Of a stretch of DNA of 64,000 nucleotides, positions 3,190-61,848 are shown piece after piece. The DNA is taken from positions 2,560,001 through 2,624,000 of the forward strand of contig CBDEGZ010000003.1 in NCBI GenBank assembly GCA_965238175.1, given 5' to 3'. This DNA is from Gammaproteobacteria bacterium. Its GTDB lineage: Bacteria; Pseudomonadota; Gammaproteobacteria; CAJXQU01. Under the pieces are notes generated by a model. The model did not search any database. It worked only from the letters and a program-made list of their open reading frames with translations, and had not been told where the DNA came from. Position 1 is the stretch's first letter, and each line of letters begins with the position of its first letter. A program made the translations under genes and the position numbers.

Positions 3190-3234
3190 AATTTAATAGA
3201 AAAAATCGAGATAAACACTATAATCATATAGATC

Positions 3235-3651: not shown

Positions 3652-3722
3652 ACACGGTCTATTGCATTCGTTGTTTGATCGCAAGATCAAATACCGTTAC
3701 TTATTCGCATTAGAGGTGTTTT

Positions 3723-45191: not shown

Positions 45192-46007
45192 ATGTTGAAC
45201 ATCGTCACAGCACTACTCTGTGAAACTCGGCCAATTATTTCAAAATTAAAACTGAAATTAAGCTCACATAAATCGCCTTTCAAAATTTATCAAAATGATC
45301 AAATAAACCTGATCATTTCGGGTGTCGGAAAAGTATCTTCCGCAAATGCTATCGGTTATTTATATGCCAATAATAATTCTGTAGAACAGACTAGTGCATG
45401 GTTGAATATTGGTATAGCCGGCCATTCTAGCTTTGAGATAAATACTGGATTTCTGGCCAATAAAATTATTGATAAAACCACTGAACAAACCTGGTATCCA
45501 CCAATTATTTTTGATCAACCTTGTTGTACAGATAAATTAATGACTGTTGATAAACCCGGCAGCGAATATACGTTTAATGGTGGTGTCGATATGGAAGCAT
45601 CAGCTTTTTATGCCAGCGCCTCACGCTATACAACAAATGAGTTGATTCATTCATACAAAGTTGTATCCGACAATCCAAACTCACCACTACACAAGATAAC
45701 ACCTGCTCAAGCTTCTGAATTAATTTCATCGAATATAGAAGATATTCAATTTCTAATCGATCAGTTATTGATCATAAATAATGAATTATCTTCTACCACT
45801 TCGATTCCGATTGACTTTAAAACACTAAAAAAACAAATAAGAATGACGCATTCAGAACAATTAAAAATAAAAAACCTTCTATCGAAATTAAATATTATCA
45901 ATTCTAATTTGACATTGGATTTTGATCAGTTCATAGAAATAGCTTCAAGTGAAAACCTCATTTCTTATCTTGATAATTTGCTAAAAAAACAGGAAATATA
46001 CTTTTAA
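45192..46007 (+). CDS. Nucleoside phosphorylase/MTA-SAH nucleosidase-like protein
   Basis: TAL..E..P, ISGVGK, LNIGIAG, DMEASAF, K.VSD. Confidence 0.75.
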   Translation: MLNIVTALLCETRPIISKLKLKLSSHKSPFKIYQNDQINLIISGVGKVSSANAIGYLYANNNSVEQTSAWLNIGIAGHSSFEINTGFLANKIIDKTTEQTWYPPIIFDQPCCTDKLMTVDKPGSEYTFNGGVDMEASAFYASASRYTTNELIHSYKVVSDNPNSPLHKITPAQASELISSNIEDIQFLIDQLLIINNELSSTTSIPIDFKTLKKQIRMTHSEQLKIKNLLSKLNIINSNLTLDFDQFIEIASSENLISYLDNLLKKQEIYF

Positions 46008-46009
46008 AA

Positions 46010-47005
46010 ATGATATCGACTATTTATATCGAAGATGAGATCCGTGATCATCCTGTTACACAGAAAATTCTCTCTCGTTTCAAAGGTGCAGTTCTAATTG
46101 AGTGTGACCGATACACTGAAGTGTTTAATCGTAATTCACAAAATTTCCGCCTACAGAAGAAAAAACCAGCTTTAATTCTTGCAAAAAAACACAGTGGTTT
46201 CGTTTTAAAAGCACCTGACGATTACGGTATCGATGGTCACGATAGTGATAATTATTATTTTTCACACATGTTGAATTGTATTTATGACTGCCGGTATTGC
46301 TTTCTTCGAGGTATGTATCGTTCGGCTCATTATGTACTTTTTGTTAATTACGACAGTTTCACAGATGCAATTGATCAAACTCTAGAAAATCATCCAGGTC
46401 GAAAAATTTGGTTTTATTCTGGTTATGATTGCGATAGTCTTGCGCTAGATCCTGTTACCGAGTTTGCAGACTTTATACTGCCATTCTTCAAATCTCGTCC
46501 AAATGCTTATTTAGAGTTCCGTACAAAAAGCACACAAGTGCGCTCTCTATTACGTTCTGATCCAATCCTCAATTGCGTCGTAGCATTTAGTTTATCACCG
46601 AGAAATATTACTGAATCTCTTGAAGATAAAACACCTTCATTGCAAAGTCGTCTGGATGCAATGAAGAAGTTACAACAAACTGGTTGGAGTATTGGAATAC
46701 GTTTTGAACCTTTGATCTACACAACGGATTTTAAAGAAAATTATAAACAACTATTCTTACACGTTTTCAAACAACTTGATGCCGATAAAATACACTCCAT
46801 CAGCATAGGTGCTTTTCGAGTTCCAAAAAGCTATTACAAAAATATGTCTAAGCTTTATCCTGATGAAAAATTATTTGCTGGGCCATTAGAAGAAAATAAC
46901 GGCGTCATCGCCTATAAAAGTGAGCTACAAAAGGAAATGCTTGATTGGTGCTATAAAAAAATCTCAGATCAAATTCCTGAGAGTAATCTTTATCAGTGTG
47001 GTTAA
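46010..47005 (+). CDS. Spore photoproduct lyase-like radical SAM protein
   Basis: CIYDCRYC (CxxxCxxC), DCDSLA, LEFRTKS, SLSP. Confidence 0.85.
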   Translation: MISTIYIEDEIRDHPVTQKILSRFKGAVLIECDRYTEVFNRNSQNFRLQKKKPALILAKKHSGFVLKAPDDYGIDGHDSDNYYFSHMLNCIYDCRYCFLRGMYRSAHYVLFVNYDSFTDAIDQTLENHPGRKIWFYSGYDCDSLALDPVTEFADFILPFFKSRPNAYLEFRTKSTQVRSLLRSDPILNCVVAFSLSPRNITESLEDKTPSLQSRLDAMKKLQQTGWSIGIRFEPLIYTTDFKENYKQLFLHVFKQLDADKIHSISIGAFRVPKSYYKNMSKLYPDEKLFAGPLEENNGVIAYKSELQKEMLDWCYKKISDQIPESNLYQCG

Positions 47006-47020: not shown

Positions 47021-48298
47021 TCAGTCTTTTTTTACATGTCTTTTTTCGAGCAGTCGATGTATGCGCATAGCCAGGGTTTGATGTGCAACCGCGGAGTTTT
47101 CTTTTAATATATTAGAAGTTAAGGTCACAATGTAATGAAGATCATTTTTCTCATTTGATGTTTCTATAATAGCGACAGAGTTCATTAAATTCATAACATT
47201 GCCGTGATACTTTTTGCATACGAATTCCGGATCAGGATCATCTTCGCATTTGTATAAAGATCCAGATTTAAAATAAACGGCAGAGTCTTTCAGGGCTGGA
47301 TGAGAGGCATAACGTATCCGCCGCTCGGTCATGTATAGCAATCGTTTAATCTCACGACTAGAAAATTCATCTACCAGATCACCCTGCTCTATCTTCAGCA
47401 TAAGCCTCATTAATTCGCGAGTGGTTCCGTAGCTATTCGTCCCTTGAACTAGACGCTTTCCTTTATAGGTGAAAAAACTTCCTTGCCTTAGCTTTTTTAT
47501 ATTGATCCCATTACGTATCAGAGGTGCTTGAATTGTTTCAGCTAATAATTCAGTAAGTTCTTTTCTTGGCATTTCTGCGAATAACTGATCAGACTTAAAA
47601 TCCGAAACTGGATATTCTTTACCAAAATGTCTGATCAACATAGCTTGTTTTAGCACCATGCTTGCAGCTGCGTTTGAACTCGCTGATAGCATCCAATCAA
47701 GATATTCCCAAAGACTGCCCTGGTCACCAACTCGAAGAGGCCGCTGTTTAACTCGATTTTTTTCAGCTTGCCAGAACTTCACCACATGATGATCACTGAT
47801 AATAAATTTATCTGCAGTAATAATCGTATCCCGCAGTACTTGCTTTCGCTTTTCTATATCATTTGGATAAGCGTAAGCTAACGCTTGAAAAACTGCTGTT
47901 GCGACTATTATTTTGCCGACACTTCCTGGGTTACGTGCAAGATCACCATTATGTTCAGCATAAACAGGCTGCTCAGGATCAGATAGATCCAGCACTGAAA
48001 TTGAATACTTACCAAGGTTCTCGTATAAGAAACGCCGTACTTGTTTCGTTAATACAGTGTCTACTTTAGGCAACTCAACCTCTTCATGATGATGCAACCT
48101 AATATCAATGGCATCAATAGATTGCAAAGCACCTGCAGGTTGCTTGCTTCCGCGTAATTCCCCTTGTTCGATTAAACGTGCAGCTTCAAGTCGACGAATT
48201 TGCGTATCTTCGCTGCCAAATAATGGATAGCCAGAAAGGCCAAAAGGAATAAAACAGCCAGCTAAAATCATTATCTTTCGAAACATGGATTTACTCAT
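47021..48298 (-). CDS. Exported serine beta-lactamase/PBP-fold protein
   Basis: Signal peptide; SxxK (SVGK, Ser126), SxN (SSN) and KTG-like (KSG) motifs in the expected order. Confidence 0.8.
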   Translation of the reverse strand: MSKSMFRKIMILAGCFIPFGLSGYPLFGSEDTQIRRLEAARLIEQGELRGSKQPAGALQSIDAIDIRLHHHEEVELPKVDTVLTKQVRRFLYENLGKYSISVLDLSDPEQPVYAEHNGDLARNPGSVGKIIVATAVFQALAYAYPNDIEKRKQVLRDTIITADKFIISDHHVVKFWQAEKNRVKQRPLRVGDQGSLWEYLDWMLSASSNAAASMVLKQAMLIRHFGKEYPVSDFKSDQLFAEMPRKELTELLAETIQAPLIRNGINIKKLRQGSFFTYKGKRLVQGTNSYGTTRELMRLMLKIEQGDLVDEFSSREIKRLLYMTERRIRYASHPALKDSAVYFKSGSLYKCEDDPDPEFVCKKYHGNVMNLMNSVAIIETSNEKNDLHYIVTLTSNILKENSAVAHQTLAMRIHRLLEKRHVKKD

Positions 48299-48408: not shown

Positions 48409-51105
48409 ATGAAAGTAAAAAAAATCATTCTTTTACCATTTCTGACAATAACTTTGTCGCTTTCAGCTTGTCTGTTTAAATCCGATTCTGTCGAAAAACA
48501 TTTTGAAAATGCTAAGGCATATGCTGCTGGTGAATATAATGCTGCGGCAATTGTGGAATTGAAAAATATTTTAAATAACCTTCCTGGGCATACTCCATCG
48601 CTTTTGCTGTTAGATAAAGTAACAAAAGGTCCAAACAAAAGTAAAGAAATACTACCTTATCTCTATCGTGCACAACAAGCAGGAGTAGAAGATACAAGGA
48701 TAATTTATCGACTAGCTAAGGCCTATCTCGCACTCAAGCAGTTTAAGGCTGCACAAAAAGAGCTTGATTCACTTACCTCAAATATTTCAAATCCAGAAAA
48801 ATTAGTAACATTAGAAATTTTACGCGCTGAAACTCTAATAGGGCAGCGCAAATATAAAAAAGCTCAGAAAACATACAACAATCTTCTAAAAGATAGAAAC
48901 AATGAAATTATAGCTAAAATAGGTTTAGCAACCATTTCAATACAAAAAGTAGCCGACCAATTACCACATCATCCATCATACTCAAATATTAAGCTACCAG
49001 GTGATCAATTTTTATTTGACTCATCTCAACAGTCAAGCACGGCAACATTATCAAAAAGCATGAAAAAACATCTGCTGATAGGTAAGAAATACATAGAGCA
49101 AGTACTTGATGTAGATACAGATAATCTTACAGCAATCTTAGCACTTGCAGAAATTTACTATTTAGAAGGTAATTATTCAAAAGCAATTGATTATGCAAAT
49201 CATAGTTTAACGATTGATAAACAAAATATTAAAGGATTACTTATATTTTCACGATCAAATATATTACTTGGTTATGTTCGGTCAGCTAAATATAGTCTGC
49301 TCCAATTATTAGCAATTGACAAATCAAATCTGCAAGCAAAAAATACACTCGCCGCAATCCATCTTAGTCAAGGTCGTATAAAAGAAAGTACAGATCTTTT
49401 AATACCTTATCTGAAAAAAGGTGTTAAAAATGAAGATCTCTTTATAAATCTCGGGATTGCTGAGCTAATCAAAAATAATGTCAAAGAAGCGCTAAACTAT
49501 TTCAAGAAAGCGGTTATACACTTTCCAAAATCTTCCTATGCTTATGCTCAACTAGGAACCGCATACCTTCAAAATGAACAACCCAGACTTGCTTTGGATG
49601 CATTTAAAAAAGCACATTTAAATGAAAAAAATAATTTTAAAATAAGTCTAGGTCTAATTCAGGTCATTTTATCTAATGGTAACATTAGCACAGGATTGCG
49701 TGTTGCTAAAGTTTTGGAGATTGAACATCCAAGATCACCTATCCCATTTCATATACAAGGCAAAGTTTATGAGTTCCAGAAGAGGCAAGCTCGTTCAAAA
49801 GAAATGTATCAAAGAGCACTTAAAGTAGAACCAAAATTTTATCCGTCAAGAGTACAATTAGCACAGTTATTCTTAAAAGAAAATAACATAATAGCTGCAG
49901 AAAAATTATTAGAAGAAGGTTTAAAGCTCTCACATGCACAATTAGAACTCTCCATTGAATTAGCCTCTTTGCAAGACAGCAAAGGGCAACATCAAGAAGC
50001 AATTAATCGATTAGAAACGATCGTTTCAAACTATCCTAGCCATATAGAACCCTTGCTTTCTCTTGGTAAAATCTATTTACAACAAGGTAATCTTAAAGAA
50101 GTTTTAAATATAAAGAAAAAATTATCTAGTATTCATTCATTGCCAGAAAATGTAATATTATTTTTTGCAGATTATTATCGAAAGCTTGGTAATACAACTG
50201 AATTAACAAAGATGTATGCATTGTTAGAAGATCTATTCCCCGCTCACCCCTATTACCAACTACTATCAGCGCAGGCCAACACAATGATGGGGCGATATAA
50301 AAAAGCTAAAGAAAAATACCAGAAAGTTTTATCTGTAATGGGTGAAGATTTTATCCCAGTTTTAACTGGAATAGCAGATCTTGAATTACAACAAAATAAT
50401 ATAGAGATAGCTGAAAATTTAATCGAGATTATCTCCAATAAATCTCCATATATTGTAGAAAATTATCTGCTTAGTGGTAATTTATCTATGCTTAAAAAAA
50501 GCTATCATGATGCTATTAAAAATTTCGCCACTGCCTTCCGAGACACAAATGATCCTCTAATACTCAAAGAAATAACTTCAGCCTACTTAAAAATAAATCA
50601 GCGAAAAAAGGCAGATAAACTTTTAACCAAGTTACAAAAACATTTCCCTGAAAATTCGGATTTCAGCTTGATTTATATAGATCATTATCAGCAAATAAGT
50701 AACTATAAAAAAGCATTTGCAGAAGCTAATCGTTTTCTGGAAATACAACCAAATAATGCACTGATTCTAGATAAGCTAGCCCAATTATATTTAGTTAATG
50801 ATTCTGACGAAGCCTGGTTTATTAGTAAAAAAGCCTATCAAATGTCACCGGAGGCACCAGCTATACTTAATACTTACGGTCAATTATGCCTTAAAAGAAA
50901 ACAATTTGGTGAAAGTCTTGACGTACTACAAAAAGCCGTTATAGCATCACCTTCAACACCTTCATACCAATATCACTTTGCCAAGGCACTCATTAAATCA
51001 GGACAATCAAATCCTGCAAAAAGATTACTAAAATCAGCATTAGCAAAAAATGATTCATTTCCAGAAAGTAAGCAGGCTGAAGCGCTACTATCCGATATAA
51101 ATTGA
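48409..51105 (+). CDS. TPR-repeat lipoprotein, PrsT-like
   Basis: Lipobox LSLSAC; AA.VELKN.L; many TPRs; C-terminal P.ILNTYG...QYH.A.AL...FPE...A..LL as in PEP-CTERM PrsT. Confidence 0.75.
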   Translation: MKVKKIILLPFLTITLSLSACLFKSDSVEKHFENAKAYAAGEYNAAAIVELKNILNNLPGHTPSLLLLDKVTKGPNKSKEILPYLYRAQQAGVEDTRIIYRLAKAYLALKQFKAAQKELDSLTSNISNPEKLVTLEILRAETLIGQRKYKKAQKTYNNLLKDRNNEIIAKIGLATISIQKVADQLPHHPSYSNIKLPGDQFLFDSSQQSSTATLSKSMKKHLLIGKKYIEQVLDVDTDNLTAILALAEIYYLEGNYSKAIDYANHSLTIDKQNIKGLLIFSRSNILLGYVRSAKYSLLQLLAIDKSNLQAKNTLAAIHLSQGRIKESTDLLIPYLKKGVKNEDLFINLGIAELIKNNVKEALNYFKKAVIHFPKSSYAYAQLGTAYLQNEQPRLALDAFKKAHLNEKNNFKISLGLIQVILSNGNISTGLRVAKVLEIEHPRSPIPFHIQGKVYEFQKRQARSKEMYQRALKVEPKFYPSRVQLAQLFLKENNIIAAEKLLEEGLKLSHAQLELSIELASLQDSKGQHQEAINRLETIVSNYPSHIEPLLSLGKIYLQQGNLKEVLNIKKKLSSIHSLPENVILFFADYYRKLGNTTELTKMYALLEDLFPAHPYYQLLSAQANTMMGRYKKAKEKYQKVLSVMGEDFIPVLTGIADLELQQNNIEIAENLIEIISNKSPYIVENYLLSGNLSMLKKSYHDAIKNFATAFRDTNDPLILKEITSAYLKINQRKKADKLLTKLQKHFPENSDFSLIYIDHYQQISNYKKAFAEANRFLEIQPNNALILDKLAQLYLVNDSDEAWFISKKAYQMSPEAPAILNTYGQLCLKRKQFGESLDVLQKAVIASPSTPSYQYHFAKALIKSGQSNPAKRLLKSALAKNDSFPESKQAEALLSDIN

Positions 51106-51123: not shown

Positions 51124-54045
51124 TCAGGGAGTTTCTTGTAGTTCGACTATTACGTTATCTCGTGAAACCATCTCTTCATCCATTGAAATAAGATATTCGT
51201 TTTCTCTTGCTTCGGTACTTTCAAGAAACGGTCTGATTTGGAATAATTGTAATCGACCTCCTACAAAACCAAACTCTATATCTACAGGTTTAATATCACC
51301 CTTGTCATCTATAAGATCTGGAAATTTTTCAGGCAAATGTTGATATAATTCGATCAATTTTTTTACTTCTTCTTTTTGTAGAATTGCTTCAGAGCCACTC
51401 ACCAAGATATTTTGGATCCCACCTGATTTTCTTAGCACCTTTTTGAATCGAGTATTACTTTGTGCCATCAATATAACTTCAGATGTTTCAGTATTAACTT
51501 TAATCGACTCAGCCTGTTGACCATCAACGGCACCACCAATACCTTCATTAACTGAGATAGAAAGCCATCCACTTTCTCCAGTATTAATATCTTGTGTCAC
51601 CATAACACCCGATTTTTCTGTAGGCACACTTCGCATTAATAAAATAGCGGGATATACATGCTCAGGTTGTTCCATGTGAGATTGTCGCCAGGCAAAAGCT
51701 CGTTTAGAAAACGGAGATGCCCAAACACGGGAGATCGCCTTAAGAATATTTTCATATCCTACTACATTCGGAACAGTCAAATTCAAACCTGCCCCAGTAA
51801 AACCGGCTAGATCTTCAACGTTAGTATCACTACGAACAAAGACACCATATTGACCATCAGTACCAAAAATATCTTGCATTTCTTGCTTTAATCGAAGTTT
51901 AAAACTTCTACCTGGATTTGCATTTTCGATCCAGTTTACCAGTGCTTCACGAAATTCCTTTTCGGTCTTTTTCCTCTGCGTAGAATTAACTGGCATTTCA
52001 TCCACTAACCGATATTGGTCAACCATCCAATAAAATACGCTTTTCCCTGCACCCGGCATAGGTTGTTGCAACAACTGGCTGAAAATGGAAAACGGAATAG
52101 TTATACCGTTAGCAACGGCATCTGGAAAATGATGATAGAGCTCTCCAAGCTTCGCTGCTTTTGGTCCTACTGTCACACCAGAATCGGTAGCCCTCAATTT
52201 AGAAAGTGGAATAAAATTAATATTTTCAAGTTCAAGCTTTTCCAAATCTGGTTTTATTAAGATTGTAGGTCTAGATGGATTTGATTCGAACAAACTTTCA
52301 TAATTTCCATCATCTAGAAACAATCGAACCGCACCCGCCTGACTGACCGCAAGAATAACTTTCTTATTCTCATAGGGTTTTAATTTTTCGATCAAAGCAT
52401 AATCAATACCGACGTTCGGAATACCCAAATTTCTTGCGAGTAACTGCACATGTGAAAGTGGATTCCCTTCACCAGAAGTTAAGATGCCTGCAACGGGTGG
52501 TAAATCAGCGATCGTCTCTGGCAATAAATAAATACCATCACGATCAAATTTAGAAACGTTACCATTTACATTGCCAAGAAATAGAGTGCCGCGCGCTAAA
52601 CCAGGATTCAAGCTTCGAAGTCCGGTACCTGCTTCTTCACCAAATAAATTAGAACGAACTCCAGCAAGTTGATTGGCATCACGTACTAAAGAATTCAGTA
52701 CATTGGCAAAAAAATGTAGCGGCCCACCACGTAATTGATCTTGTATAAAAAACTCAGCCAAGGGTTCAATCTCTGTTAACTTTTTTAAAGAATCATAAAA
52801 GTGAGCTTGTAAGTTCTGCCCTGCCCAACCAGGAATTCTGGAAAGATAATTCAATGCATTTCTATAACGAACGAGACCTATTTTTTGATCACCAATTTTA
52901 TCCAAGGCATCCAGCATCACATCAAATTGTCTTCTCGAAAGTAAGCCTGTTCCATAAGTCGCTTTCAAACTACTCTTTAGCCAGTCTAATTTTTTTGCAC
53001 GAGATGTATTATCTAAGTCGGCAATCAGTTCTCTACCAAGATCAAAATGTTCGGCCTCTAATAAAATGCTTATATCAAGTACATCAAGTCTGACACCAGC
53101 TTTAGGAACGTCGATCAAATGATCACGTAAAACCATCATCGTGTTTGCGGTCGTAGCAAATAAAACCTCTGGGTCACGACTGCTAATTAATCTTGCAGAC
53201 ATATCACGTAACGAGCGTGACATTTGCGGCATTTTTCGCACACGTTTTGATAACCGCGTGATTGGAATATTTAATGCGGGACGCGCATAAATTTCATCGA
53301 TCAAATCCGCCAGTTGAAAAAATTTTTCAGCCTGTTTATTCTCCAACTTCTCCGCATATTCTCTTACAGATTTTGCATCAGTAGAATCAGGAGAAATATG
53401 AATTTTATTTCTCAGCGGTAAGAATTTTCTATCTGAATTCGACAGGTCAATTGCTATTTGTCGCATTTTCAAAACCGATGGTGTATCTATTCCATGCGGT
53501 AATACATGGATGCCTGTTCGTAATGTCAAATATCCACGCGTTATCCAATCTTTCGATTGAACCAGTGTTTGTAATACCCTTCTGGCACCACGAACTTCAT
53601 CTTCAGCCTGCATTGATCCACGATAAAAACGCGATTTACGATTTATCCATCCATCATCGACCGTGGTAAGATAACGTTCGATAAGTAACTGCTTAAATTG
53701 TTCTGCTCTGTCTGGTTTAGACATCAAACCAGAATCTTCATCAGCTAATAATGTCGCGATATAATAACCTTTACTACGCAGAGTTTTTACTTGCTTACTC
53801 CATTCACCGTGTTGTACACCACCACCATGGTCACTACATGCATATGGTTCAGGTGCTAAAATACTACCATCCTGACAAAACCAGCGGAGTCGAGAAAAAG
53901 GACCTCTATCACGTTCCTTCATTTCGGAAATCCATTGTCGATAAGTTGTATTCGCATTTGCCTCTACCACAAATGAAAACAGCATGGATAACAGATAAGC
54001 AACGATCGTGAAAATCGTATTTTTTTTCATAGCACTTTTGGGCAT
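51124..54045 (-). CDS. PEP-synthase/dikinase-superfamily protein with signal peptide; phospho-His domain precedes the C-terminal ATP-grasp domain
   Basis: GNPLSHVQLLARN (His532); VGPKAAKLGEL, VRSD.NVEDL.GF.GAGL, VWAS.F, DIEFG, QIRP; no pyruvate-binding barrel; N-terminal Sec signal ending ANA. Confidence 0.8.
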   Translation of the reverse strand: MPKSAMKKNTIFTIVAYLLSMLFSFVVEANANTTYRQWISEMKERDRGPFSRLRWFCQDGSILAPEPYACSDHGGGVQHGEWSKQVKTLRSKGYYIATLLADEDSGLMSKPDRAEQFKQLLIERYLTTVDDGWINRKSRFYRGSMQAEDEVRGARRVLQTLVQSKDWITRGYLTLRTGIHVLPHGIDTPSVLKMRQIAIDLSNSDRKFLPLRNKIHISPDSTDAKSVREYAEKLENKQAEKFFQLADLIDEIYARPALNIPITRLSKRVRKMPQMSRSLRDMSARLISSRDPEVLFATTANTMMVLRDHLIDVPKAGVRLDVLDISILLEAEHFDLGRELIADLDNTSRAKKLDWLKSSLKATYGTGLLSRRQFDVMLDALDKIGDQKIGLVRYRNALNYLSRIPGWAGQNLQAHFYDSLKKLTEIEPLAEFFIQDQLRGGPLHFFANVLNSLVRDANQLAGVRSNLFGEEAGTGLRSLNPGLARGTLFLGNVNGNVSKFDRDGIYLLPETIADLPPVAGILTSGEGNPLSHVQLLARNLGIPNVGIDYALIEKLKPYENKKVILAVSQAGAVRLFLDDGNYESLFESNPSRPTILIKPDLEKLELENINFIPLSKLRATDSGVTVGPKAAKLGELYHHFPDAVANGITIPFSIFSQLLQQPMPGAGKSVFYWMVDQYRLVDEMPVNSTQRKKTEKEFREALVNWIENANPGRSFKLRLKQEMQDIFGTDGQYGVFVRSDTNVEDLAGFTGAGLNLTVPNVVGYENILKAISRVWASPFSKRAFAWRQSHMEQPEHVYPAILLMRSVPTEKSGVMVTQDINTGESGWLSISVNEGIGGAVDGQQAESIKVNTETSEVILMAQSNTRFKKVLRKSGGIQNILVSGSEAILQKEEVKKLIELYQHLPEKFPDLIDDKGDIKPVDIEFGFVGGRLQLFQIRPFLESTEARENEYLISMDEEMVSRDNVIVELQETP

Positions 54046-55564: not shown

Positions 55565-55734
55565 AGCTTTTGTCCGTCAGGACGATAATCTCTGATATTA
55601 GGCTATTAGTATTTTAAAGATGTTAAGCGTCACACACTCTAAAAAATTCAAAAAATGACCGTCTGTCGGCCCATTTTTACCACTCATACCCTCAAAGCTT
55701 GTATATCAATCATTCTGAATCTAAATTTGTCCTT

Positions 55735-56253
55735 ATGGAAAAAAATACTCAATCCAATTCAGGCTTTTCACTGATAGAGCTGATTGTCACAGTAGCCATG
55801 GCCGGTATTCTGATGGCAGTTGCCATCCCAAGTATGCGCGATCTGATGGTCAGCAATCGAGTAGCGGGTTACGCCAATGAATTTCTGAGCGGATTACACC
55901 TTGCGAGAAGCGAAGCTGTTAAACGAGGCTCGCGCGTCACGATGTGCCGCAGTTCGAATGGCACTAGTTGTGCGGGCACAGGAAATTGGCAAGTCGGTTG
56001 GGTCATTTTTGAAGATGATAATAACGATGGATCATTTACTGCGGGAGATGTAATACAGGTACGTGAAGCGTTGGCTAATTCCATTTCTCTGACAGGTAGG
56101 GGTCAAACAGGATCATACGTGTCTTTTATACAAAATGGATCAGCTCAAACAACAGCTGGTGCGGCTCAAAGAGGGACTCTCGACCTAACCCTAGAGAGTA
56201 CATCACGAACTATCACTCTCGCCAGTGTCGGCCGTGTAAGTGTGTCTCAATAG
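55735..56253 (+). CDS. fimT: Type IV minor pilin FimT/FimU (GspH family)
   Basis: GFSLIEL prepilin cleavage site; ARSEAVKRG..V.MC. Confidence 0.9.
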   Translation: MEKNTQSNSGFSLIELIVTVAMAGILMAVAIPSMRDLMVSNRVAGYANEFLSGLHLARSEAVKRGSRVTMCRSSNGTSCAGTGNWQVGWVIFEDDNNDGSFTAGDVIQVREALANSISLTGRGQTGSYVSFIQNGSAQTTAGAAQRGTLDLTLESTSRTITLASVGRVSVSQ

Positions 56254-56274
56254 ATGATTCAGGATTAAAAACAC

Positions 56275-56817
56275 ATGTCTAAATCACAACTAGGAATTAC
56301 CTTACTTGAGTCACTTGTTGCTCTATTAGTTTTATCAATTGGCTTGTTAGGAACAGCGCACCTAATGGCAACAGGGATCCAATACTCAAATAGTTCTTTT
56401 GCAAGGACGCAGGCGACCCTTATTGCAGAAAATATTGCCGAAAGAATGCGTGCAAATCCAAATGCAATAGCGGCAATGAACTACAATAATTTCGACTCAA
56501 ATACTATCGCAGATTGTACAACACCTCCTGCAGCCTATTGCCAGCAAAGAGGCACAACAGCACCCGCTAGTTGTACCGCATCACAACTAGCCACCTTTGA
56601 CACTTTTCAAGCTGTCTGTGGCAGTGGCGGATCAACTAAAGGAAACAATGGCGTAAGGGATCTTTTACTCGGCGGCCAACTGACTATCAACTGCGATGGT
56701 GCTCCCTGTACAGCGACATCGACTTATACCATTCGAGTGGGTTGGAACGAAACCGAATTAGTAAATAATACCGATACCACCAATACCAAAATGGTTCAAC
56801 ATGTGATTCTTCCATGA
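56275..56817 (+). CDS. pilV: Type IV minor pilin PilV
   Basis: GITLLE.LVAL.VLSIGLLG; AERMRAN. Confidence 0.9.
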   Translation: MSKSQLGITLLESLVALLVLSIGLLGTAHLMATGIQYSNSSFARTQATLIAENIAERMRANPNAIAAMNYNNFDSNTIADCTTPPAAYCQQRGTTAPASCTASQLATFDTFQAVCGSGGSTKGNNGVRDLLLGGQLTINCDGAPCTATSTYTIRVGWNETELVNNTDTTNTKMVQHVILP

Positions 56818-56850
56818 GTCTCCATTTCTGATCAAAATAAGGAAAACACT

Positions 56851-57576
56851 ATGCAATTCCCCAAGCAAAAATCTATAAAGGGACAAAAAGGCTTCTCTTT
56901 GATTGAAATGATGGTCGCCATGTTAATTGGTTTATTTCTATTGGGTGGCGTTGTTAGTGTTTATATCAGCAGTTCGCAGTCCTCAAGAGTTAACAACGGT
57001 TTAAGAACAATGCAGGAAAATGGTCGTTATGCGCTGACTTTGTTAAGAAACTCAATACAAATAAGTGGTTATATTTCAGATTATGATCCCTCAGCAGTAA
57101 TCGATCCATTTCCAGCAGCCAGCAATACTAGTATTACCGTGAGTTATGAAGCCGATACTGATTGTACCGGCGCGAATACAACAACATATGCAGCACCAAA
57201 TACTGGGATAGTGCGAGATTCCTTTCAAGTAAATACTGATAACGAACTTACCTGTATCCCACGACAAACTAACAGCCCTCAAATTCTGATCGAAGGTGTT
57301 GATGCAATGCGTATTCTCTACGGGCTAGATGATGATAATGATGGCACAGCCGATCGCTACGTTAGTGCAAATGTTGTAAATGCTGTAGGCCCTACAGCAT
57401 GGCAAAACAATGTGAGTAGTGTTCGTATTGCTTTGCTTATGAATTCGGTCACCAATATCAAACCTACAGCAGATACAAAAACCTATACCTTGTTGGATAC
57501 AACGACAACCCTCACCGATCGAATGCTACACAAGGTGTTCACAACAACTATTTTGATCCGTAACCGAATAACATAG
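56851..57576 (+). CDS. pilW: Type IV minor pilin PilW
   Basis: GFSLIEMMVA, QENGRYAL, YGLD.D.DG, VRIALL, TTI.IRN. Confidence 0.9.
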   Translation: MQFPKQKSIKGQKGFSLIEMMVAMLIGLFLLGGVVSVYISSSQSSRVNNGLRTMQENGRYALTLLRNSIQISGYISDYDPSAVIDPFPAASNTSITVSYEADTDCTGANTTTYAAPNTGIVRDSFQVNTDNELTCIPRQTNSPQILIEGVDAMRILYGLDDDNDGTADRYVSANVVNAVGPTAWQNNVSSVRIALLMNSVTNIKPTADTKTYTLLDTTTTLTDRMLHKVFTTTILIRNRIT

Positions 57577-57579
57577 GCA

Positions 57580-58140
57580 ATGGGCATGGAGCATACAACT
57601 ATGAATTTTACGGCACCTGAAAAACAGCAAGGTATTGCTTTAGCTGTTAGCTTAATCTTTCTCGTTTTAATCACCATCATTGGCGTTTCATCCATACGCG
57701 GCACCACGATGAATGAACTGATGTCAGCAAACGCGCAACAAAAAAGTGCTACTTTTCAAATCGCAGAATCGGTGATTGAGGGCGTCTGGGATACCGGCTA
57801 TGTCCTGAGAAATACACCGTCACAGATAACCAACTCACCCGCAGTAAACCTGACGGTGGATAAAAATAATTTCGATTTCAATACCAGCTTTGATGTTCCC
57901 GCCCATGGTGGCTTAGCAGCAATTAACGTCAATGCTCAAGCAACACTTCAATATTGTGGGGAAGATTTCAAACTTCTTGGTTATTCACAAAGTGCCGATG
58001 AATCAACACCCGCCTTTGTGGCACATGTTTATAGTATTCACGGCGTTGGTGAGATTGCAGCAGCAAATGCATTTTCCGATCATGATCAACGTGGATATTT
58101 AATCCGTCCTGAAACCGGACGCACTGGCAACTGCCCATAA
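57580..58140 (+). CDS. pilX: Type IV minor pilin PilX
   Basis: QQGIALAVSL (no Glu5), FQ.AES. Confidence 0.85.
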   Translation: MGMEHTTMNFTAPEKQQGIALAVSLIFLVLITIIGVSSIRGTTMNELMSANAQQKSATFQIAESVIEGVWDTGYVLRNTPSQITNSPAVNLTVDKNNFDFNTSFDVPAHGGLAAINVNAQATLQYCGEDFKLLGYSQSADESTPAFVAHVYSIHGVGEIAAANAFSDHDQRGYLIRPETGRTGNCP

Positions 58141-58217
58141 TTTCACCCTTAATTTCATATGAACACTGAAGACACACAGCTTGAATATGGATACTCAAAT
58201 AGCTACTTGGAATACAA

Positions 58218-61200
58218 ATGAACTCTAGGAATTTAATCATGATAAATCTAATATCAAAAGTAAAACCATTAGCAGCAGCGACTTTTGCAGTTTTGATCTT
58301 GTCGTTCTCTCTTTATTTGCCACAAGTGAAGGCAGACGACACGGAAGTGTTTCTTTCTTCCGGCAGTGCGGCAAATGTGCTGTTTATTTTTGATCTATCT
58401 GGAAGTATGGATGAAGACACAAGTGAGCGCTGCTCAAATAATAATATTACCCCAAGCGGTGGTTATAACGGTGGAGGCTACGGTACTTGCAATGGGACGA
58501 AACGTCGTTATCAAGCGATGATGGATGCGTTAGTGACCGTTTTAAGCAACCTAAAGGATCGACCCAACTTACGTGTTGGTTTGAGTCTATTTGGAATGAA
58601 ACGTGGAAGCCGAAATACTAACGCTTCTGGTATTCGTTGGCCAATAAGACAGATCACAGAAGATGCAAATTTAACGGACTCTAATATCCCTACCGGCACT
58701 TATCAAACCCATGGTGTCATACTTCAACACCTTGCTAACATGAGCGACAGCAATGGCATACTCTATAATGGTTATAGTTGGAATGGTAGCAATTATGTTA
58801 CAACTCCAGGAGAGCTAGCAGGTGCAGGTACTTCGATTGTCGCTGCCCTATATGAAGCAGCGTTGTATTTTAAGGGTGATAGAGTAACTTCAGGGTTTGG
58901 TGCTTTTCAACCTCCAACATGGAATGTAAACCGTTCACGCTTCCAATATGACTCTGGGTACTTGACCTATAACTCTTCTTGTCTTTGCTGGATTCTTACA
59001 GCGAGTAATGGCACGTCTTTTTCAGCACATCGATCAACCTATACACCCGCCACTGCCTGGAATCCAAGCTTCAATACATTTGATCCTAATGCGACTTATC
59101 AAAGCCCGATCGTTGATAGTTGTGATAAAAATTATATCGTTCTGTTGTCTGATGGTGCACCGAATGGAGATGCCGCTATATCACAAATACAAGCAATGAT
59201 TGGTAGAACCTGCCAAGATAATGTCGGCAGATGTGGCCGTGAAATCGTAGAATATCTTGCAAATACCAATCTGAGATCAGCCCAGGGAATAACTCCGAGT
59301 AATGTAGTAACGCATACTATTGGTTTTAACATAGACGGTGATGCACAAACCTTTATGCAAGATTTAGCTACAAATGGCGGCGGTAGTTTCTACTCAGCAA
59401 ATAATACCCGCTCATTAGTAGACAGTTTAACGCTAATTTTAGATGTCATCGATAGTGAGAATGATACATTTACCGGTCTTTCGAGTTCTGTCAATGCAGG
59501 TGAGTTAGCTTCAGACAACCGTGTTTTCACAAGTATCTTCAAACCTTCTGAAAAACGCTCTTGGATCGGGAATACCAAGGGTTACTTTATTGATGGCACA
59601 AATGGACTCGTTGACGTGAATGGAGCAGTTGCTACTATCACAGACTCAACAGCTGAAGAGTACGGCAAATTCAAAGAAAATGCACAAAGCTTTTGGTCTA
59701 CAACAGCTGATGGCGGGAATGTTGACGTTGGTGGTCTGGCTGGAAAACTAAGGACGGGCAACCGAAACGTCTATACGACTGCACCTGGCGGAACAACACT
59801 TGTCGATATAGCACATAACAGCATTACTTTTGATCAGTTTAATCTGACAAATACCAATCAGAGGACAACTTTACTTAATTGGTTAGACAACGAAGCTCCA
59901 ATGGGCGATCCATTGCATGCAGCTTCAGTTATGATTCCTTATAGTAGTGGCCAGGACGTTCTCTTCACAATGACAAATCAGGGCGTATTACACATTTTTG
60001 ATGTAAGCAATCCAACCCAATATGGTGATACATCCGGTGGTACAGAACTTTCAGCTTTTATACCTCAATCTCTATTACCTAATCTTGAAAGACATAGGTT
60101 AAATATCGATGACAGCAATCATTTATATGGTCTTGATGGATCTATTTCCTACTTGAAAGAAAACGGAAGAACCTATCTTTACTTTGGAATGCGTCGAGGT
60201 GGCAATCAATACTTCGCACTGGATGTTACCAATCCTTCAGCACCAAAATTCCTCTGGCAGATCGATGGTGGCGCTGGAAGCTTTAGTTCACTTGGGCAAA
60301 CATGGTCTCGGCCTATAGTAACCTCAATTCACTGGGCTGGCGCTTCTAACCGAAAAGTTCTCATCTTCGGCGGAGGCTACAATGTGGCACAAGACGGTTA
60401 CACAACAAGAACTCAAGACACAGTTGGTAATGCTGTTTATATTGTCGATGCTAAAACGGGAGAGAAACTCTGGTCAGTAGGATCAGACGCTTCAAACTCT
60501 GCTGTTGTACCACAAATGGCCTACAGTATCCCTTCTGATCTAACCATCATTGATGCGGATGATGATCAACATGCTGATCGCATATACTTCGGTGATATGG
60601 GAGGGCAGATCTGGCGGATTGATCTTACAACAACTAGTTCTTTGACTAGTTTAAGCACATATCGTTTAGCTGATTTAGCCGCCGGTTCAGAAACTAACCC
60701 GGCCGATTTACGTCGCTTTTATAGTCCACCTAGTGTTGCTCTGATTAATGATTCTGGGTCTTTTCATTATGCAGTTGCCATTGGTTCAGGTTACCGTGCC
60801 CATCCTAAGGCTACTGGTGTAAATGATCGCTTTTACATGTTGAAAGATACCATTCTTGATTCAAATGGTAGTGGACCCAACAGCTGGAGAATGCTCACTG
60901 AATCTAACCTTTACAATACAACGAGTAACATTATTGGAGAAGGCGACTCTGCAGATAAGACCCGAGCCTTAGACATTTTGAGTAGTAAAAAAGGTTGGTA
61001 TTTAGAATTAGCCAGCACGGGCGAAAAAGCATTATCCCCTTCCTTGATTTTTAATAATCAATTGGTTTTCACGACCTATGTTCCATCAACTTCAGGCCTG
61101 AGCTGTGATGTCGCTGCAGGTAATGGCAGGTTGTACCTAGTTAATCTCACAGATGCTACACCTGTTAAAGATTTTGTACCATCAGTAACAGCGCCTGGTG

Positions 61201-61376: not shown

Positions 61377-61407
61377 ATAGTTTAGTCAACGAAACAGACT
61401 CTAAATA

Positions 61408-61848
61408 ATGGAAAACAAAATAGGATCTAAAATGCATAGAAAACAAACTGGTTTTACACTCATTGAGATGATGATCGTTGTCGCTATTATGGGTATTTTA
61501 GGGGCTATCGCACTACCGGCATACCAGGATCAAATCCGAAAAAGCAAACGTGCCGAAGGACAAAACCTTTTGCTCGATGCAGCGAGTAAGCAGCAACGTT
61601 ATTTTTCGGACAATATTGGTTTTGCGAGCAGGATGAGTGAGCTTGGTTATGCGGCTGACTCTGTAACGTCTACCTCGGAGGCGTATACAGTTACCGTAGA
61701 TCGGGCTGCAGCTGATGGCAGTAGTTTTACCTTACTTGCAACCGCATTGAACGATCAAATAAACGATGGCTGTAAAAACCTGACACTCACAAGTACTGGT
61801 GTAAAAGGTCGATCTGGGACAATACCACTAAAGGAATGTTGGAAGTAA
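61408..61848 (+). CDS. pilE: Type IV minor pilin PilE
   Basis: [27 protein letters not shown]...G.K, terminal CW. Confidence 0.92.

What the first reader, a model, noticed from the sequence alone, without database searches (positions are those of the whole stretch)
51124..54045. Signal-peptide-bearing dikinase with glucan-water-dikinase-like architecture
Seen: a 973-aa protein with a Sec-type signal (MKKNTIFTIVAYLLSMLFSFVVEANA), about 450 aa of unassigned helical sequence, a phospho-His motif (PLSHVQLLARN, His532) and then a C-terminal PEP-synthase ATP-grasp domain; there is no pyruvate-binding barrel. Known: PPDK, PpsA and rifampin phosphotransferase place the ATP-grasp domain first and are cytoplasmic, whereas His-domain-then-nucleotide-domain with an LSHV..RARN-like motif is the layout of plant glucan,water dikinases. 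Inference: not a PEP synthase but an exported water dikinase that phosphorylates an envelope or extracellular substrate (glycan, peptidoglycan or small molecule). That raises the question of where it obtains ATP.
Basis: partly seen in the sequence, partly recalled or inferred. Interest (0 to 1): 0.8.

Follow-up and report, generated by a model that had tools for sequence, protein, structure and literature searches.

The report
Exported dikinase with its own ATP transporter
This gene encodes an ATP-using phosphotransfer enzyme that carries an export signal, and it always travels with two exported penicillin-binding-like enzymes and a membrane ATP/ADP-type transporter, which suggests that some free-living bacteria deliberately feed ATP into a compartment usually said to contain none.

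Summary
A 973-aa ORF on the minus strand (51124-54045) has a Sec-type signal peptide, a 440-aa all-helical domain with no detectable relative, a phosphohistidine swivel domain (His532) and a C-terminal PPDK_N ATP-grasp domain. It has no pyruvate barrel. The signal peptide, a Cys57/Cys70 pair, His532 and the ATP-binding residues are conserved across a large uncharacterised family, found in at least 586 species genomes.

The gene belongs to a four-gene module:
- the dikinase;
- C1, usually translationally coupled to it, and C2, both exported proteins of the class-A beta-lactamase/PBP type with intact SxxK/SxN/KSG motifs;
- an inner-membrane NTT/TLC nucleotide exchanger that matches solved ADP,ATP carriers over its full length.

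In 300 sampled genomes of the window's class, the dikinase, C1 and C2 occur in the same 26-27 genomes, and all 27 also carry the transporter. A second class repeats this in 7 of 7 genomes.

My best reading is a periplasmic ATP-driven phosphotransfer system supplied by the NTT, with an unknown, possibly cell-wall, substrate. It shares only its domain order with plant glucan,water dikinases, and membership of that family is not shown. All function is inferred from sequence and genomic context. I found no published description.

The parts
51124..54045 (-). Whole ORF of the exported dikinase (973 aa plus stop codon)
   Evidence: ORF list and translation. More than 4272 homologues.
53953..54045 (-). 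Sec-type signal peptide, residues 1-31, with the predicted cut after A-N-A
   Evidence: Sequence. A signal-peptide-like N-terminus is present in 110 of 120 close homologues. No signal-peptide predictor was run.
52630..53952 (-). N-terminal domain, residues 32-472: a small Cys57/Cys70 beta element followed by an all-helical body. This is the presumed acceptor-binding domain
   Evidence: Model pLDDT 90.9. No PDB match: Foldseek best E 0.23, and VIA best Z 12.2 over only 97 residues of a generic helix bundle. No Pfam hit. In the 150 best of 764 representatives it occurs only at the N-terminus of this architecture. C57 and C70 are each conserved in 91 of 92.
52246..52629 (-). Phosphohistidine swivel domain, residues 473-600
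   Evidence: PEP-utilizers at 507-545, E 1.3e-4, hit in 42 of 42 family members. Beta/alpha elements in the model.
52450..52452 (-). Codon of His532, the predicted phospho-carrier residue in G-N-P-L-S-H-V-Q-L-L-A-R-N
   Evidence: Codon position. Invariant in 42 of 42 and present in 90 of 92 representatives at 24-45% identity.
51127..52209 (-). C-terminal ATP-grasp nucleotide-binding domain (PPDK_N), residues 613-973
   Evidence: Pfam E 5.9e-29. Foldseek matches rifampin phosphotransferase (E 2e-13) and PEP synthase. R738, E744, D745, E924 and Q936 are conserved in at least 89 of 92. R738 and T757 align to RPH Arg117 and Thr136.
47021..48298 (-). C1: exported 425-aa protein of the class-A beta-lactamase/PBP type, the module partner of the dikinase. 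In this lineage it is separated from the dikinase by an inserted TPR gene
   Evidence: Pfam Beta-lactamase2, E 3e-8. Signal peptide and invariant S126-x-x-K129, S207-S-N209, K344-S-G346 and C351/C361. It is the next ORF after the dikinase on the same strand in 47 of 65 loci with enough downstream DNA, with a 4-nt stop/start overlap in 37 loci. It is found in 26 of the 27 dikinase-positive genomes and in 0 of the other 273 scored.

Best explanation
**Proposed reading.** The ORF encodes a Sec-exported His-swivel 'water dikinase'. Its ATP-grasp domain takes the beta-phosphate of ATP onto His532, releasing AMP and Pi. The swivel domain then carries the phosphoryl group to an acceptor held by the family-specific helical N-domain.

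**The module.** The enzyme is the core of a conserved four-gene envelope module:
- the dikinase;
- two exported serine enzymes of the penicillin-binding/class-A beta-lactamase type, C1 (in the window at 47021-48298) and C2;
- an inner-membrane NTT/TLC nucleotide exchanger, C3.

In this genome C2 and C3 lie about 21 kb from the dikinase, beyond the window's 3' end, at G000:C3:2635825-2637267 and G000:C3:2634355-2635602.

**Mechanism.** The exchanger most likely exports cytoplasmic ATP in exchange for the spent adenine nucleotide, so that phosphorylation can run in the periplasm. The acceptor is unknown; a peptidoglycan-derived or other cell-envelope substrate is the leading guess.

**Shown here:** architecture, conservation of catalytic residues and export signals, gene linkage and phyletic co-occurrence.

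**Inferred:** localisation, catalysis, the direction and substrate of transport, and the acceptor.
For: **Architecture and catalytic residues**
- Domain calls and models.
- H532 is present in 90 of 92 representatives and the ATP-site residues in at least 89 of 92, at 24-45% identity.
- R738 and T757 align to RPH Arg117 and Thr136, residues shown by mutagenesis to position ATP (passages of PMC4844700).

**Export**
- A signal-peptide-like N-terminus in 110 of 120 close homologues.
- A conserved Cys pair in the dikinase (91 of 92) and in C1 (C351/C361 invariant).
- C1 and C2 carry signal peptides.

**Gene linkage, 78 loci with a dikinase ORF**
- C1 is present in 63, C2 in 40 and NTT in 34. Many of these loci are cut by contig ends.
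- C1 is the next ORF on the same strand in 47 of 65 loci, and the dikinase stop overlaps the C1 start by 4 nt in 37.

**Phyletic pattern in the window's class**
- Dikinase in 27 of 301 genomes.
- C1 in 26 of 300, all of them dikinase-positive.
- C2 in 27 of 300, the same 27 genomes.
- NTT profile in 68 of 300, including all 27. The 25 genomes with NTT E<=1e-120 are all dikinase-positive, and the other 2 have an NTT-HEAT form within 6 kb of the dikinase.
- By my count from the place tables, 18 of the 27 have dikinase and NTT within 10 kb on one contig.

**Phyletic pattern in a second class (121 genomes)**
- Dikinase in 7, C1 in the same 7, and NTT in all 7, within 6 kb in 6 of them.

**Transporter identity**
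- PF03219 scores 72.9 bits against a 21-bit cut-off.
- The profile matches solved 'ADP,ATP carrier protein 1' 9j3n (E 1.4e-37) and chloroplast NTT1 9j3j (E 7e-31) over its full length, with no other PDB hit at E<=1.

**Weaker support**
- Periplasm-type phosphoesterases flank the module in some loci: an e(P4) 5'-nucleotidase cluster in 5 loci and a Metallophos cluster in 4.
- C2 carries a LysM/OapA domain in the window's genus.
Against: - No experiment exists for any component.
- No signal-peptide predictor was run.
- The direction and substrate of the NTT cannot be read from sequence. Characterised NTTs import nucleotides, and the dikinase should yield AMP plus Pi rather than ADP.
- The NTT match to the curated NTP/NDP exchanger model is far below its cut-off (62 vs 387 bits).
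- 41 dikinase-negative genomes in the same sample also have NTT-family hits. Two reach E 1e-101 to 1e-103, and one dikinase-negative genome in the second class reaches 3.7e-69. The transporter family is therefore not exclusive to this module.
- ATP released into the periplasm could leak through porins.
- The NTT profile was built from dikinase neighbours, and related genomes are not independent, so the co-occurrence is descriptive and not a statistical test.
- In the window's own genus the genes are dispersed: 21 kb apart here, and about 1 Mb apart in G088.
- The peptidoglycan link is thin. LysM/OapA on C2 was seen in 2 of 2 genomes of the window's genus and in 0 of 4 other lineages.
- The tallies include the unpublished genome G039.
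Confidence: 0.5

Rival explanations
1. A bacterial counterpart of plant glucan,water dikinase. The exported enzyme phosphorylates a periplasmic or extracellular glucan or other glycan.
For: - It has the same His-domain-then-ATP-grasp order.
- 17 of 42 family members give weak GWD1_pHisD hits, best E 0.0074.
- An Atlas look-alike cluster of bacterial PPDK_N proteins carries GWD1_pHisD on 15% of its members (a lead only).
Against: - The window's protein has no GWD1_pHisD hit at E<=1, and no CBM20, CBM45 or any other carbohydrate-binding family.
- The N-domain is all-helical with no known fold.
- The conserved partners are PBP/beta-lactamase-like, and no glycoside hydrolase or glycosyltransferase cluster recurred among the neighbour clusters I annotated.
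- No GWD structure is available for comparison. Passages of PMC12892837 say none is solved, and the PDB sequence searches found none.
Confidence: 0.1
2. A periplasmic detoxification module. The dikinase inactivates an antibiotic or xenobiotic by phosphorylation, as rifampin phosphotransferase does, alongside two beta-lactamase-like hydrolases.
For: - The best structural and sequence matches of the ATP-grasp domain are rifampin phosphotransferases.
- RPH-type dikinases with unknown substrates are widespread in environmental bacteria (abstract and passages of PMC4844700).
- C1 and C2 keep all three class-A active-site motifs.
Against: - It scores 65 bits against the 999-bit cut-off of the RPH model.
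- The N-domain search returned no RPH chain; this is inconclusive.
- The module is a stable single-copy four-gene set across two classes, with translational coupling. That pattern looks more like envelope physiology than an accessory resistance gene.
- C1 and C2 match known beta-lactamases and PBPs only at E 0.35 and 0.0025 in the PDB.
Confidence: 0.15
3. The transporter imports rather than exports. The module scavenges external nucleotides. The dikinase either uses ATP already present outside the cell, runs in reverse, or acts after release from the cell (through secretion or vesicles) where ATP is available.
For: - All characterised NTTs are importers of parasites, symbionts or plastids (abstract and passages of PMC5381601).
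- 5'-nucleotidase-type phosphoesterases sit next to the module in some loci.
Against: - The carriers are free-living sediment and marine bacteria with ordinary genome sizes of 2.3-6.2 Mb.
- Import alone does not explain the one-to-one association with an ATP-grasp enzyme and two PBP-like proteins that all carry export signals.
- Water dikinase reactions strongly favour ATP consumption (established enzymology of PEP synthase; recalled, not from a call).
Confidence: 0.12
4. A protein-directed phosphorelay. As in PTS enzyme I, the swivel His passes its phosphoryl group to a protein, here C1 or C2, to regulate or activate them.
For: - The swivel domain of this superfamily is structurally similar to that of PTS enzyme I, a protein-to-protein phosphorelay component (passage of PMC4844700).
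- The dikinase and C1 are translationally coupled in 37 loci.
Against: - No sequence feature points to a phospho-acceptor site on C1 or C2.
- The 440-aa N-domain bears no detectable likeness to the HPr-binding domain of enzyme I: PEP-utilisers_N was hit in 1 of 42 members, at E 0.029.
Confidence: 0.07
5. An ordinary cytoplasmic PEP synthase or pyruvate phosphate dikinase whose hydrophobic N-terminus is not a working signal.
For: Databases name relatives 'PEP/pyruvate-binding domain-containing protein'. The PPDK_N domain is present.
Against: - There is no PEP/pyruvate barrel, and the domain order is permuted.
- It is far below every PEP synthase cut-off.
- The signal-like N-terminus is conserved at 24-50% identity, where neutral sequence would have diverged.
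- A Cys pair is conserved.
- The partner proteins are exported.
Confidence: 0.03

Closest known systems
Rifampin phosphotransferase (RPH) and related His-swivel dikinases of unknown substrate
   Same: - Three-part logic: an ATP-grasp domain, a phosphohistidine swivel domain and a family-specific acceptor domain.
- The ATP-grasp domain is the best match in the PDB: 5hv3/5hv1, E 2e-13, about 20% identity.
- ATP-positioning residues are matched.
- The RPH acceptor domain likewise had no structural homologue when it was solved (passage of PMC4844700).
   Different: - The order is a circular permutation: acceptor-His-ATP-grasp here, against ATP-grasp-acceptor-His in RPH.
- This protein has a signal peptide.
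- The acceptor domain is unrelated as far as the searches can see.
- It scores 65 bits against the 999-bit cut-off.
- RPH is described as a single-protein resistance enzyme (PMC4844700), with no reported partner transporter that I know of (recalled).
Plant alpha-glucan,water dikinase and phosphoglucan,water dikinase (GWD/PWD)
   Same: - The phosphohistidine domain precedes a C-terminal PPDK_N nucleotide domain, and the acceptor-binding part is N-terminal.
- The reaction type is ATP + acceptor + water giving AMP + Pi + phospho-acceptor (passages of PMC12892837).
- Both work in a compartment that must import its ATP. For plastids this is done by NTT1, the same transporter family as C3. The plastid role of NTT1 is recalled knowledge.
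   Different: - No starch-binding modules.
- The GWD1_pHisD model is hit only weakly, by 17 of 42 relatives, and not by this protein.
- Bacterial, and Sec-exported.
- The partners are PBP-like.
PEP synthase (PpsA) and pyruvate phosphate dikinase
   Same: PPDK_N ATP-grasp domain and PEP-utilizers swivel domain. Structural match to 2ols, 1kbl and others.
   Different: No C-terminal PEP/pyruvate barrel, reversed domain order, exported, and 83.5 vs 598 bits.
NTT/TLC nucleotide transporters (Chlamydia/Rickettsia ATP/ADP translocases, plastid NTT1); applies to the partner C3
   Same: Full-length profile match to the solved ADP,ATP carriers 9j3n and 9j3j. Above the Pfam TLC cut-off. Homologues in free-living Gamma- and Deltaproteobacteria were already catalogued as uncharacterised (PMC5381601, abstract and passages).
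   Different: A distant branch: 62 bits against the 387-bit cut-off of TIGR00769. It sits in free-living bacteria, where I propose it runs outward. It is linked to exported enzymes, a link the 2017 survey does not mention ('periplasm' and 'export' each occur 0 times in its text).
Class-A beta-lactamases and PBP-A-type DD-peptidases; applies to partners C1 and C2
   Same: Pfam Beta-lactamase2. Invariant SxxK, SxN and KSG motifs. The closest solved chain for C2 is Tll2115 of Thermosynechococcus (2j7v), E 0.0025.
   Different: Very distant from any solved member: best PDB E-value 0.35 for C1. C1 is about 160 aa longer than C2, with an extra N-terminal region and insertions. Neither matches any NCBIfam model. 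Their substrates are unknown.

Membership tests
His-swivel (PEP-utilising) dikinase superfamily | ATP-grasp nucleotide-binding domain of the PPDK_N type | tested here: met
   PF01326, E 5.9e-29, 101.8 bits against a 27-bit cut-off. Hit in 42 of 42 relatives. Foldseek to RPH and PpsA, E 1e-12 to 1e-13.
His-swivel (PEP-utilising) dikinase superfamily | Mobile phosphohistidine domain with a conserved catalytic His | tested here: met
   PF00391 at 507-545, E 1.3e-4. At 21.9 bits it is just under the 23.1-bit cut-off for this protein. Hit in 42 of 42 relatives, best E 7.5e-6. His532 is conserved in 42 of 42 and 90 of 92.
His-swivel (PEP-utilising) dikinase superfamily | Autophosphorylation from the beta-phosphate of ATP, with release of AMP and Pi | not testable with these tools
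   Needs [beta-32P]ATP labelling with an H532A control.
PEP synthase (pyruvate,water dikinase) | C-terminal PEP/pyruvate-binding TIM barrel (PEP-utilizers_C) | tested here: not met
   No such Pfam hit at E<=1 in this protein or among the 25 families listed for the 42 relatives.
PEP synthase (pyruvate,water dikinase) | Score above the curated equivalog cut-off, and ATP-grasp domain at the N-terminus | tested here: not met
   NF005057 83.5 vs 598 bits; TIGR01418 76.9 vs 739.75 bits. The ATP-grasp domain is C-terminal.
Rifampin phosphotransferase | Score above the NF041857 cut-off | tested here: not met
   65 vs 999 bits.
Rifampin phosphotransferase | RIF-binding domain fold | tested here: inconclusive
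   The N-domain model returned no RPH chain in Foldseek (best E 0.23) or in VIA wide. A missing match does not prove that the folds differ.
Glucan,water dikinase / phosphoglucan,water dikinase | Phosphohistidine domain placed before a C-terminal nucleotide-binding domain | tested here: met
   His domain at 473-600 and PPDK_N at 625-950.
Glucan,water dikinase / phosphoglucan,water dikinase | GWD-type phosphohistidine domain (PF22973) | tested here: inconclusive
   No hit for this protein at E<=1. Weak hits in 17 of 42 relatives, best E 0.0074.
Glucan,water dikinase / phosphoglucan,water dikinase | N-terminal starch-binding modules (CBM45 or CBM20) | tested here: not met
   No carbohydrate-binding family in Pfam at E<=1. 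The N-domain is helical. The identity of the defining CBMs is recalled knowledge.
Sec-exported protein | N-terminal basic n-region, hydrophobic h-region and A-x-A cleavage motif, conserved in relatives | tested here: met
   Residues 1-31. Present in 110 of 120 close homologues by a hydropathy rule; 7 are truncated gene calls and 3 are marginal. No dedicated predictor was run, and localisation is untested.
NTT/TLC nucleotide transporter (partner C3) | Full-length homology to characterised ATP/ADP carriers | tested here: met
   PF03219, 72.9 bits against a 21-bit cut-off. Profile A5 against 9j3n gives E 1.4e-37 over positions 17-419 of 428. It is below the TIGR00769 cut-off (62 vs 387 bits).
NTT/TLC nucleotide transporter (partner C3) | Transport of adenine nucleotides, and its direction | not testable with these tools
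   Needs proteoliposome exchange assays.
Class-A beta-lactamase / PBP-like serine enzymes (partners C1, C2) | SxxK, SxN and K(T/S)G active-site motifs | tested here: met
   C1: S126/K129, S207/N209 and K344-S-G346 are invariant in 33 sequences. C2: S89/K92, S125/N127 and K240-S-G242 are invariant in 28 sequences. The motifs align between C1 and C2.

The most novel reading that the evidence does not exclude
A widespread set of free-living Gram-negative bacteria (Gammaproteobacteria, Desulfobacterales, Myxococcota and others) deliberately energise their periplasm with ATP. An NTT-type exchanger, the same family that parasites and plastids use to take up ATP, runs outward to feed a periplasmic His-swivel dikinase. 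That dikinase works with two PBP-like enzymes on the cell envelope. This would be a dedicated ATP-dependent periplasmic pathway, contrary to the textbook statement that the periplasm has no ATP.
Probability: 0.4. Interest if true: 0.9.

Novelty: new variant of a known kind. Interest (0 to 1): 0.8.

Why it matters
Reviews state that 'there is no ATP in the periplasm', so every active envelope process must be coupled to the cytoplasm or to the proton motive force (passage of PMC7391070).

Here an ATP-grasp enzyme with intact ATP-binding residues is conserved together with an export signal, and it co-occurs in the sampled genomes with an ATP/ADP-carrier homologue. If the proposed mechanism holds, three things follow:
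- It gives the long-uncharacterised NTT homologues of free-living bacteria (PMC5381601) a function.
- It identifies a new envelope pathway involving two unusual PBP-like enzymes.
- It makes the question 'can bacteria supply ATP to the periplasm?' directly testable in cultured carriers such as Parahaliea or Agaribacterium.

It also adds a permuted, exported branch with a new acceptor domain to the dikinase superfamily.

Tried and rejected
**Tools and searches that gave nothing usable**
- Complex prediction with dikinase residues 30-600 plus mature C1 gave no verdict (score 0.00, controls not run). It says nothing either way about binding.
- The look-up of sequencing runs listed no RNA holder, so expression could not be examined and read laying was not used.
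- PADLOC returned one 14.7-bit hit (E 0.0033) for the dikinase and nothing for C1, C2 or C3, so there is no sign of a defence system.

**N-domain**
- Foldseek against the PDB gave best E 0.23.
- VIA wide gave best Z 12.2, over only 97 residues of a generic helix bundle. That is within the range the tool calls uninformative for helical models.
- The Atlas feature search returned only fragments of the same family, at 0.85 and 0.76.
- A profile search of 1.84 billion representatives found no other architecture among the best 150 of 764 hits. The shorter hits look like fragments, and I did not check the hits beyond the best 150.

**Fusions.** Apparent long dikinase ORFs of 1097-1259 aa in 5 loci, and a 721-aa C1 ORF, are N-terminal over-extensions produced by my longest-ORF rule, not fusions.

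**LysM/OapA on C2 as a general feature.** Rejected: it is present in G000 and G279 of the window's genus but in 0 of 4 other lineages checked.

**Literature.** Six full-text searches found no description of an exported PPDK_N enzyme or of its link to an NTT. The library excludes most subscription journals. No supplements were opened; those of PMC5381601 (species lists and trees of the NTTs) could show whether C3 orthologues were in that survey.

**My neighbour clustering undercounts the NTT.** For example, in L063 the NTT was missed by clustering but found at E 4.8e-154 on the same contig.

Full report
**1. The observation**

The window has a 973-codon ORF at 51124-54045 on the minus strand. 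The database gene call for the identical protein starts at Met6 and gives 968 aa.

Residues 1-31 read MPKSAMKKNTIFTIVAYLLSMLFSFVVEANA. This has a basic n-region, a hydrophobic core and A-N-A before the conserved mature start.

Pfam finds the following:
- PPDK_N at 625-950, E 5.9e-29.
- A weak PEP-utilizers match at 507-545, E 1.3e-4 and 21.9 bits against a 23.1-bit cut-off.
- No PEP/pyruvate barrel.
- Nothing at residues 32-472.

NCBIfam scores lie far below every PEP synthase, rifampin phosphotransferase or prodigiosin-ligase cut-off. The GC content of the gene (38.9%) equals that of the window (39.6%).

**2. The family**

The word-indexed search found more than 4272 relatives. The best 120 are 50-100% identical and about 970 aa long. 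They come from Gammaproteobacteria and Desulfobacterales metagenome-assembled genomes and are named at most 'PEP/pyruvate-binding domain-containing protein'.

These include cultured Parahaliea, Agaribacterium and Pseudomaricurvus, plus Methylococcaceae, Ectothiorhodospiraceae, Wenzhouxiangellaceae, Desulfobacterales, Myxococcota and Betaproteobacteria.

By a hydropathy rule, 110 of 120 close homologues have a signal-peptide-like N-terminus ahead of the conserved mature start. Seven are gene calls that begin at an internal Met, and three are marginal.

Conservation in 92 sequences at 24-45% identity to the window's protein:

| Residue(s) | Conserved in |
|---|---|
| His532 | 90 of 92 |
| Cys57, Cys70 | 91 of 92 each |
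| K629, R738, E744 | 91 of 92 each |
| D745, Q936 | 90 of 92 each |
| E924 | 89 of 92 |

R738 and T757 align to Arg117 and Thr136 of rifampin phosphotransferase, residues that position ATP (passages of PMC4844700). K629 probably corresponds to Lys22; that equivalence is inferred from the motif at the start of the PPDK_N match.

**3. Structure**

The full-length model has pLDDT 80.7 and pTM 0.79. It shows four parts:
- a signal helix;
- a small beta element holding the two cysteines, followed by about 20 helices (32-472);
- a beta/alpha swivel-type domain (473-600);
- an ATP-grasp domain (613-973).

Foldseek matches only the ATP-grasp part. Hits include rifampin phosphotransferase 5hv3/5hv1 (E 2e-13), PEP synthase 2ols, HpeI 9goj and PPDK.

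The N-domain was modelled alone at pLDDT 90.9 and has no convincing relative:
- Foldseek best E is 0.23.
- VIA wide best Z is 12.2, over 97 residues of a generic helix bundle.
- Atlas look-alikes are fragments of the same family.

A profile of the N-domain finds 764 representatives at E<=1e-3 among 1.84 billion proteins. In the best 150 the domain always begins at about residue 20-80 of a protein that is about 960-1050 aa when complete. The domain is therefore specific to this architecture and is the natural candidate for acceptor binding.

The order acceptor-His-ATP-grasp is a circular permutation of the RPH order (ATP-grasp, acceptor, His). It is the order seen in plant GWD.

**4. The neighbourhood: the main new result**

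I called ORFs in the 80 fetched loci plus the window and clustered them. The results for the 78 loci with a dikinase ORF are.

- **C1**, a protein of about 430 aa, lies in 63 of the 78 loci. It is the very next ORF on the same strand in 47 of 65 loci with enough downstream DNA. Its start overlaps the dikinase stop by 4 nt in 37 loci, a sign of translational coupling.
- **C2**, a protein of about 300 aa, lies in 40 loci.
- **C3**, a membrane protein, lies in 34 loci.

Many loci are cut by contig ends, and my clustering missed at least one C3.

C1 and C2 both hit Pfam Beta-lactamase2 and carry signal peptides. Both keep the three active-site motifs of penicillin-recognising enzymes as invariant columns. 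They are distant paralogues of each other: hhalign probability 97.8%, E 1e-12. C1 also has an invariant Cys pair.

C3 hits PF03219, the TLC ATP/ADP transporter family. Its profile matches the solved 'ADP,ATP carrier protein 1' 9j3n (E 1.4e-37) and chloroplast NTT1 9j3j (E 7e-31) over its full length, and nothing else in the PDB at E<=1. Some loci hold a longer NTT-HEAT form instead of, or beside, the short form.

In the window itself C1 is at 47021-48298. It is separated from the dikinase by an 898-aa TPR gene on the other strand, and the same insertion is seen in the two closest relatives, L001 and L003.

C3 and C2 lie about 21 kb from the dikinase, 10-13 kb beyond the window's 3' end, as a divergent pair at G000:C3:2634355-2635602 and G000:C3:2635825-2637267. 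Here C2 has an extra LysM/OapA domain. That domain also occurs in a second genome of the genus but in 0 of 4 other lineages checked.

**5. Co-occurrence**

In an evenly drawn sample of the window's class:

| Component | Genomes with a match |
|---|---|
| Dikinase N-domain | 27 of 301 |
| C1 | 26 of 300 |
| C2 | 27 of 300 |
| NTT profile | 68 of 300 |

- All 26 C1-positive genomes are dikinase-positive. The one exception is G039, a 400-contig genome that holds only a dikinase fragment.
- The 27 C2-positive genomes are exactly the 27 dikinase-positive genomes.
- The NTT profile hits all 27. The 25 genomes with E<=1e-120 are all dikinase-positive, and the remaining two have an NTT-HEAT gene within 6 kb of the dikinase.
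- By my count from the place tables, 18 of the 27 have dikinase and NTT within 10 kb on one contig.

In a second class, centred on a Desulfobacterales genome, with 121 genomes sampled:
- The dikinase is in 7 genomes and C1 is in the same 7.
- All 7 have the NTT, within 6 kb in 6 of them.

Caveats:
- The profiles were built from neighbours of the dikinase.
- Related genomes are not independent.
- 41 dikinase-negative genomes in the first class also have NTT-family members. The best two reach E 1e-101 to 1e-103.
- One genome could not be scored.
- The tallies include G039 (and, for the NTT, G296), which the tool flags as unpublished. Dropping G039 changes no conclusion.

**6. Mechanism**

Shown here:
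- an intact ATP-grasp site, a conserved carrier histidine and a family-specific third domain;
- conserved export signals on three proteins, and conserved Cys pairs on the dikinase and C1;
- tight linkage to a homologue of ATP/ADP carriers.

Inferred:
- The mature enzyme sits in the periplasm.
- C3 lets ATP out in exchange for spent nucleotide. An exchanger would run this way in a cell whose cytoplasm is ATP-rich.
- The dikinase forms His532-phosphate, with release of AMP and Pi, and then phosphorylates an acceptor bound by the N-domain.
- C1 and C2 act on the same substrate pathway.

The acceptor is open. Weak pointers to the cell wall are the PBP-like partners and the genus-specific LysM/OapA domain on C2. 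Periplasm-type phosphoesterases next to the module are consistent with nucleotide or phosphoester turnover outside the cytoplasm: an e(P4) 5'-nucleotidase cluster in 5 loci and a Metallophos cluster in 4. An SDF-SBP fusion transporter recurs in 10 loci.

Problems for the model are these. The expected product is AMP rather than ADP. ATP could leak through porins. Every characterised NTT is an importer. In the window's genus the genes are dispersed, with dikinase and NTT about 1 Mb apart in G088.

**7. Comparison with known families**

- It belongs to the His-swivel dikinase superfamily.
- It is not a PEP synthase, because the barrel, the domain order and the HMM cut-offs are all not met.
- It is not a rifampin phosphotransferase, because the cut-off is not met.
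- It shares with GWD only the domain order. GWD1_pHisD is hit weakly by 17 of 42 relatives and not by this protein, and there are no starch-binding modules.
- The Atlas points to shorter bacterial His-plus-PPDK_N proteins, some carrying GWD1_pHisD (a lead only).
- NTT homologues of free-living bacteria are on record as uncharacterised (PMC5381601, abstract and passages).

**8. Novelty**

Six full-text searches found no description of this enzyme family or of its link to an NTT. The library is incomplete.

I file the protein as a new variant of a known kind: a permuted, exported dikinase with a new acceptor domain. If ATP supply is confirmed, the module as a whole would contradict the standard statement that there is no ATP in the periplasm (passage of PMC7391070).

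Noticed in passing
window 48409-51105 (+): An 898-aa TPR-repeat protein sits between the dikinase and C1, on the opposite strand. It occurs only in the window and its two closest relatives (L001, L003); elsewhere the two genes overlap by 4 nt. A 909-aa TPR paralogue lies next to an exosortase (EpsH) gene just beyond the window end (L083:179-2908 and 2949-4499).
   Followed up: partly
L083:5408-10272 (G000:C3, about 1-6 kb from the NTT gene): Next to the NTT gene in the own genome lie a 1188-aa DUF1631-GGDEF-EAL protein and a 443-aa Ser/Thr kinase with a cyclic-nucleotide-binding domain. A cluster of protein-kinase-domain proteins also recurs near the module in 5 other loci (L016, L017, L022, L043, L066). 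Its one annotated member (L022) combines a response-regulator receiver domain with the kinase domain. This may be a regulatory link.
   Followed up: no
L004, L027, L032; also G098, G015, G129, G271: Some genomes carry both a short NTT (about 425 aa) and a long NTT-HEAT form (about 720-840 aa open frame) side by side at the module. G148 and G204 have only the long form near the dikinase.
   Followed up: partly
L009, L019, L020, L029, L034 (e(P4) cluster); L036, L037, L040, L068 (Metallophos cluster): A lipoprotein e(P4)-family 5'-nucleotidase cluster (5 loci) or a calcineurin-like phosphoesterase cluster paired with an unknown 487-aa protein (4 loci) flanks the module. One member of each cluster was annotated. 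This hints at nucleotide or phosphoester hydrolysis outside the cytoplasm.
   Followed up: partly
L035, L037, L040, L041, L042 and five more loci: A 740-aa fusion of a sodium:dicarboxylate symporter (SDF) with a family-3 solute-binding domain recurs near the module in 10 loci.
   Followed up: no
window 55699-61848 (+): A type IV pilus minor-pilin operon lies upstream of the dikinase region: GspH/FimT-like, Tt1218-like, PilW, PilX, a 1052-aa PilY1-like protein and a ComP/PilE-like pilin.
   Followed up: no
window 45192-47005 (+): A 331-aa spore-photoproduct-lyase-family protein is preceded by a 271-aa protein with no Pfam match. Both are convergent with C1.
   Followed up: no
L022, L043, L080: In three loci the gene directly after the dikinase is a protein of about 430-480 aa that did not cluster with C1, and the one member scanned has no Pfam hit. 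It may be a very divergent C1.
   Followed up: no
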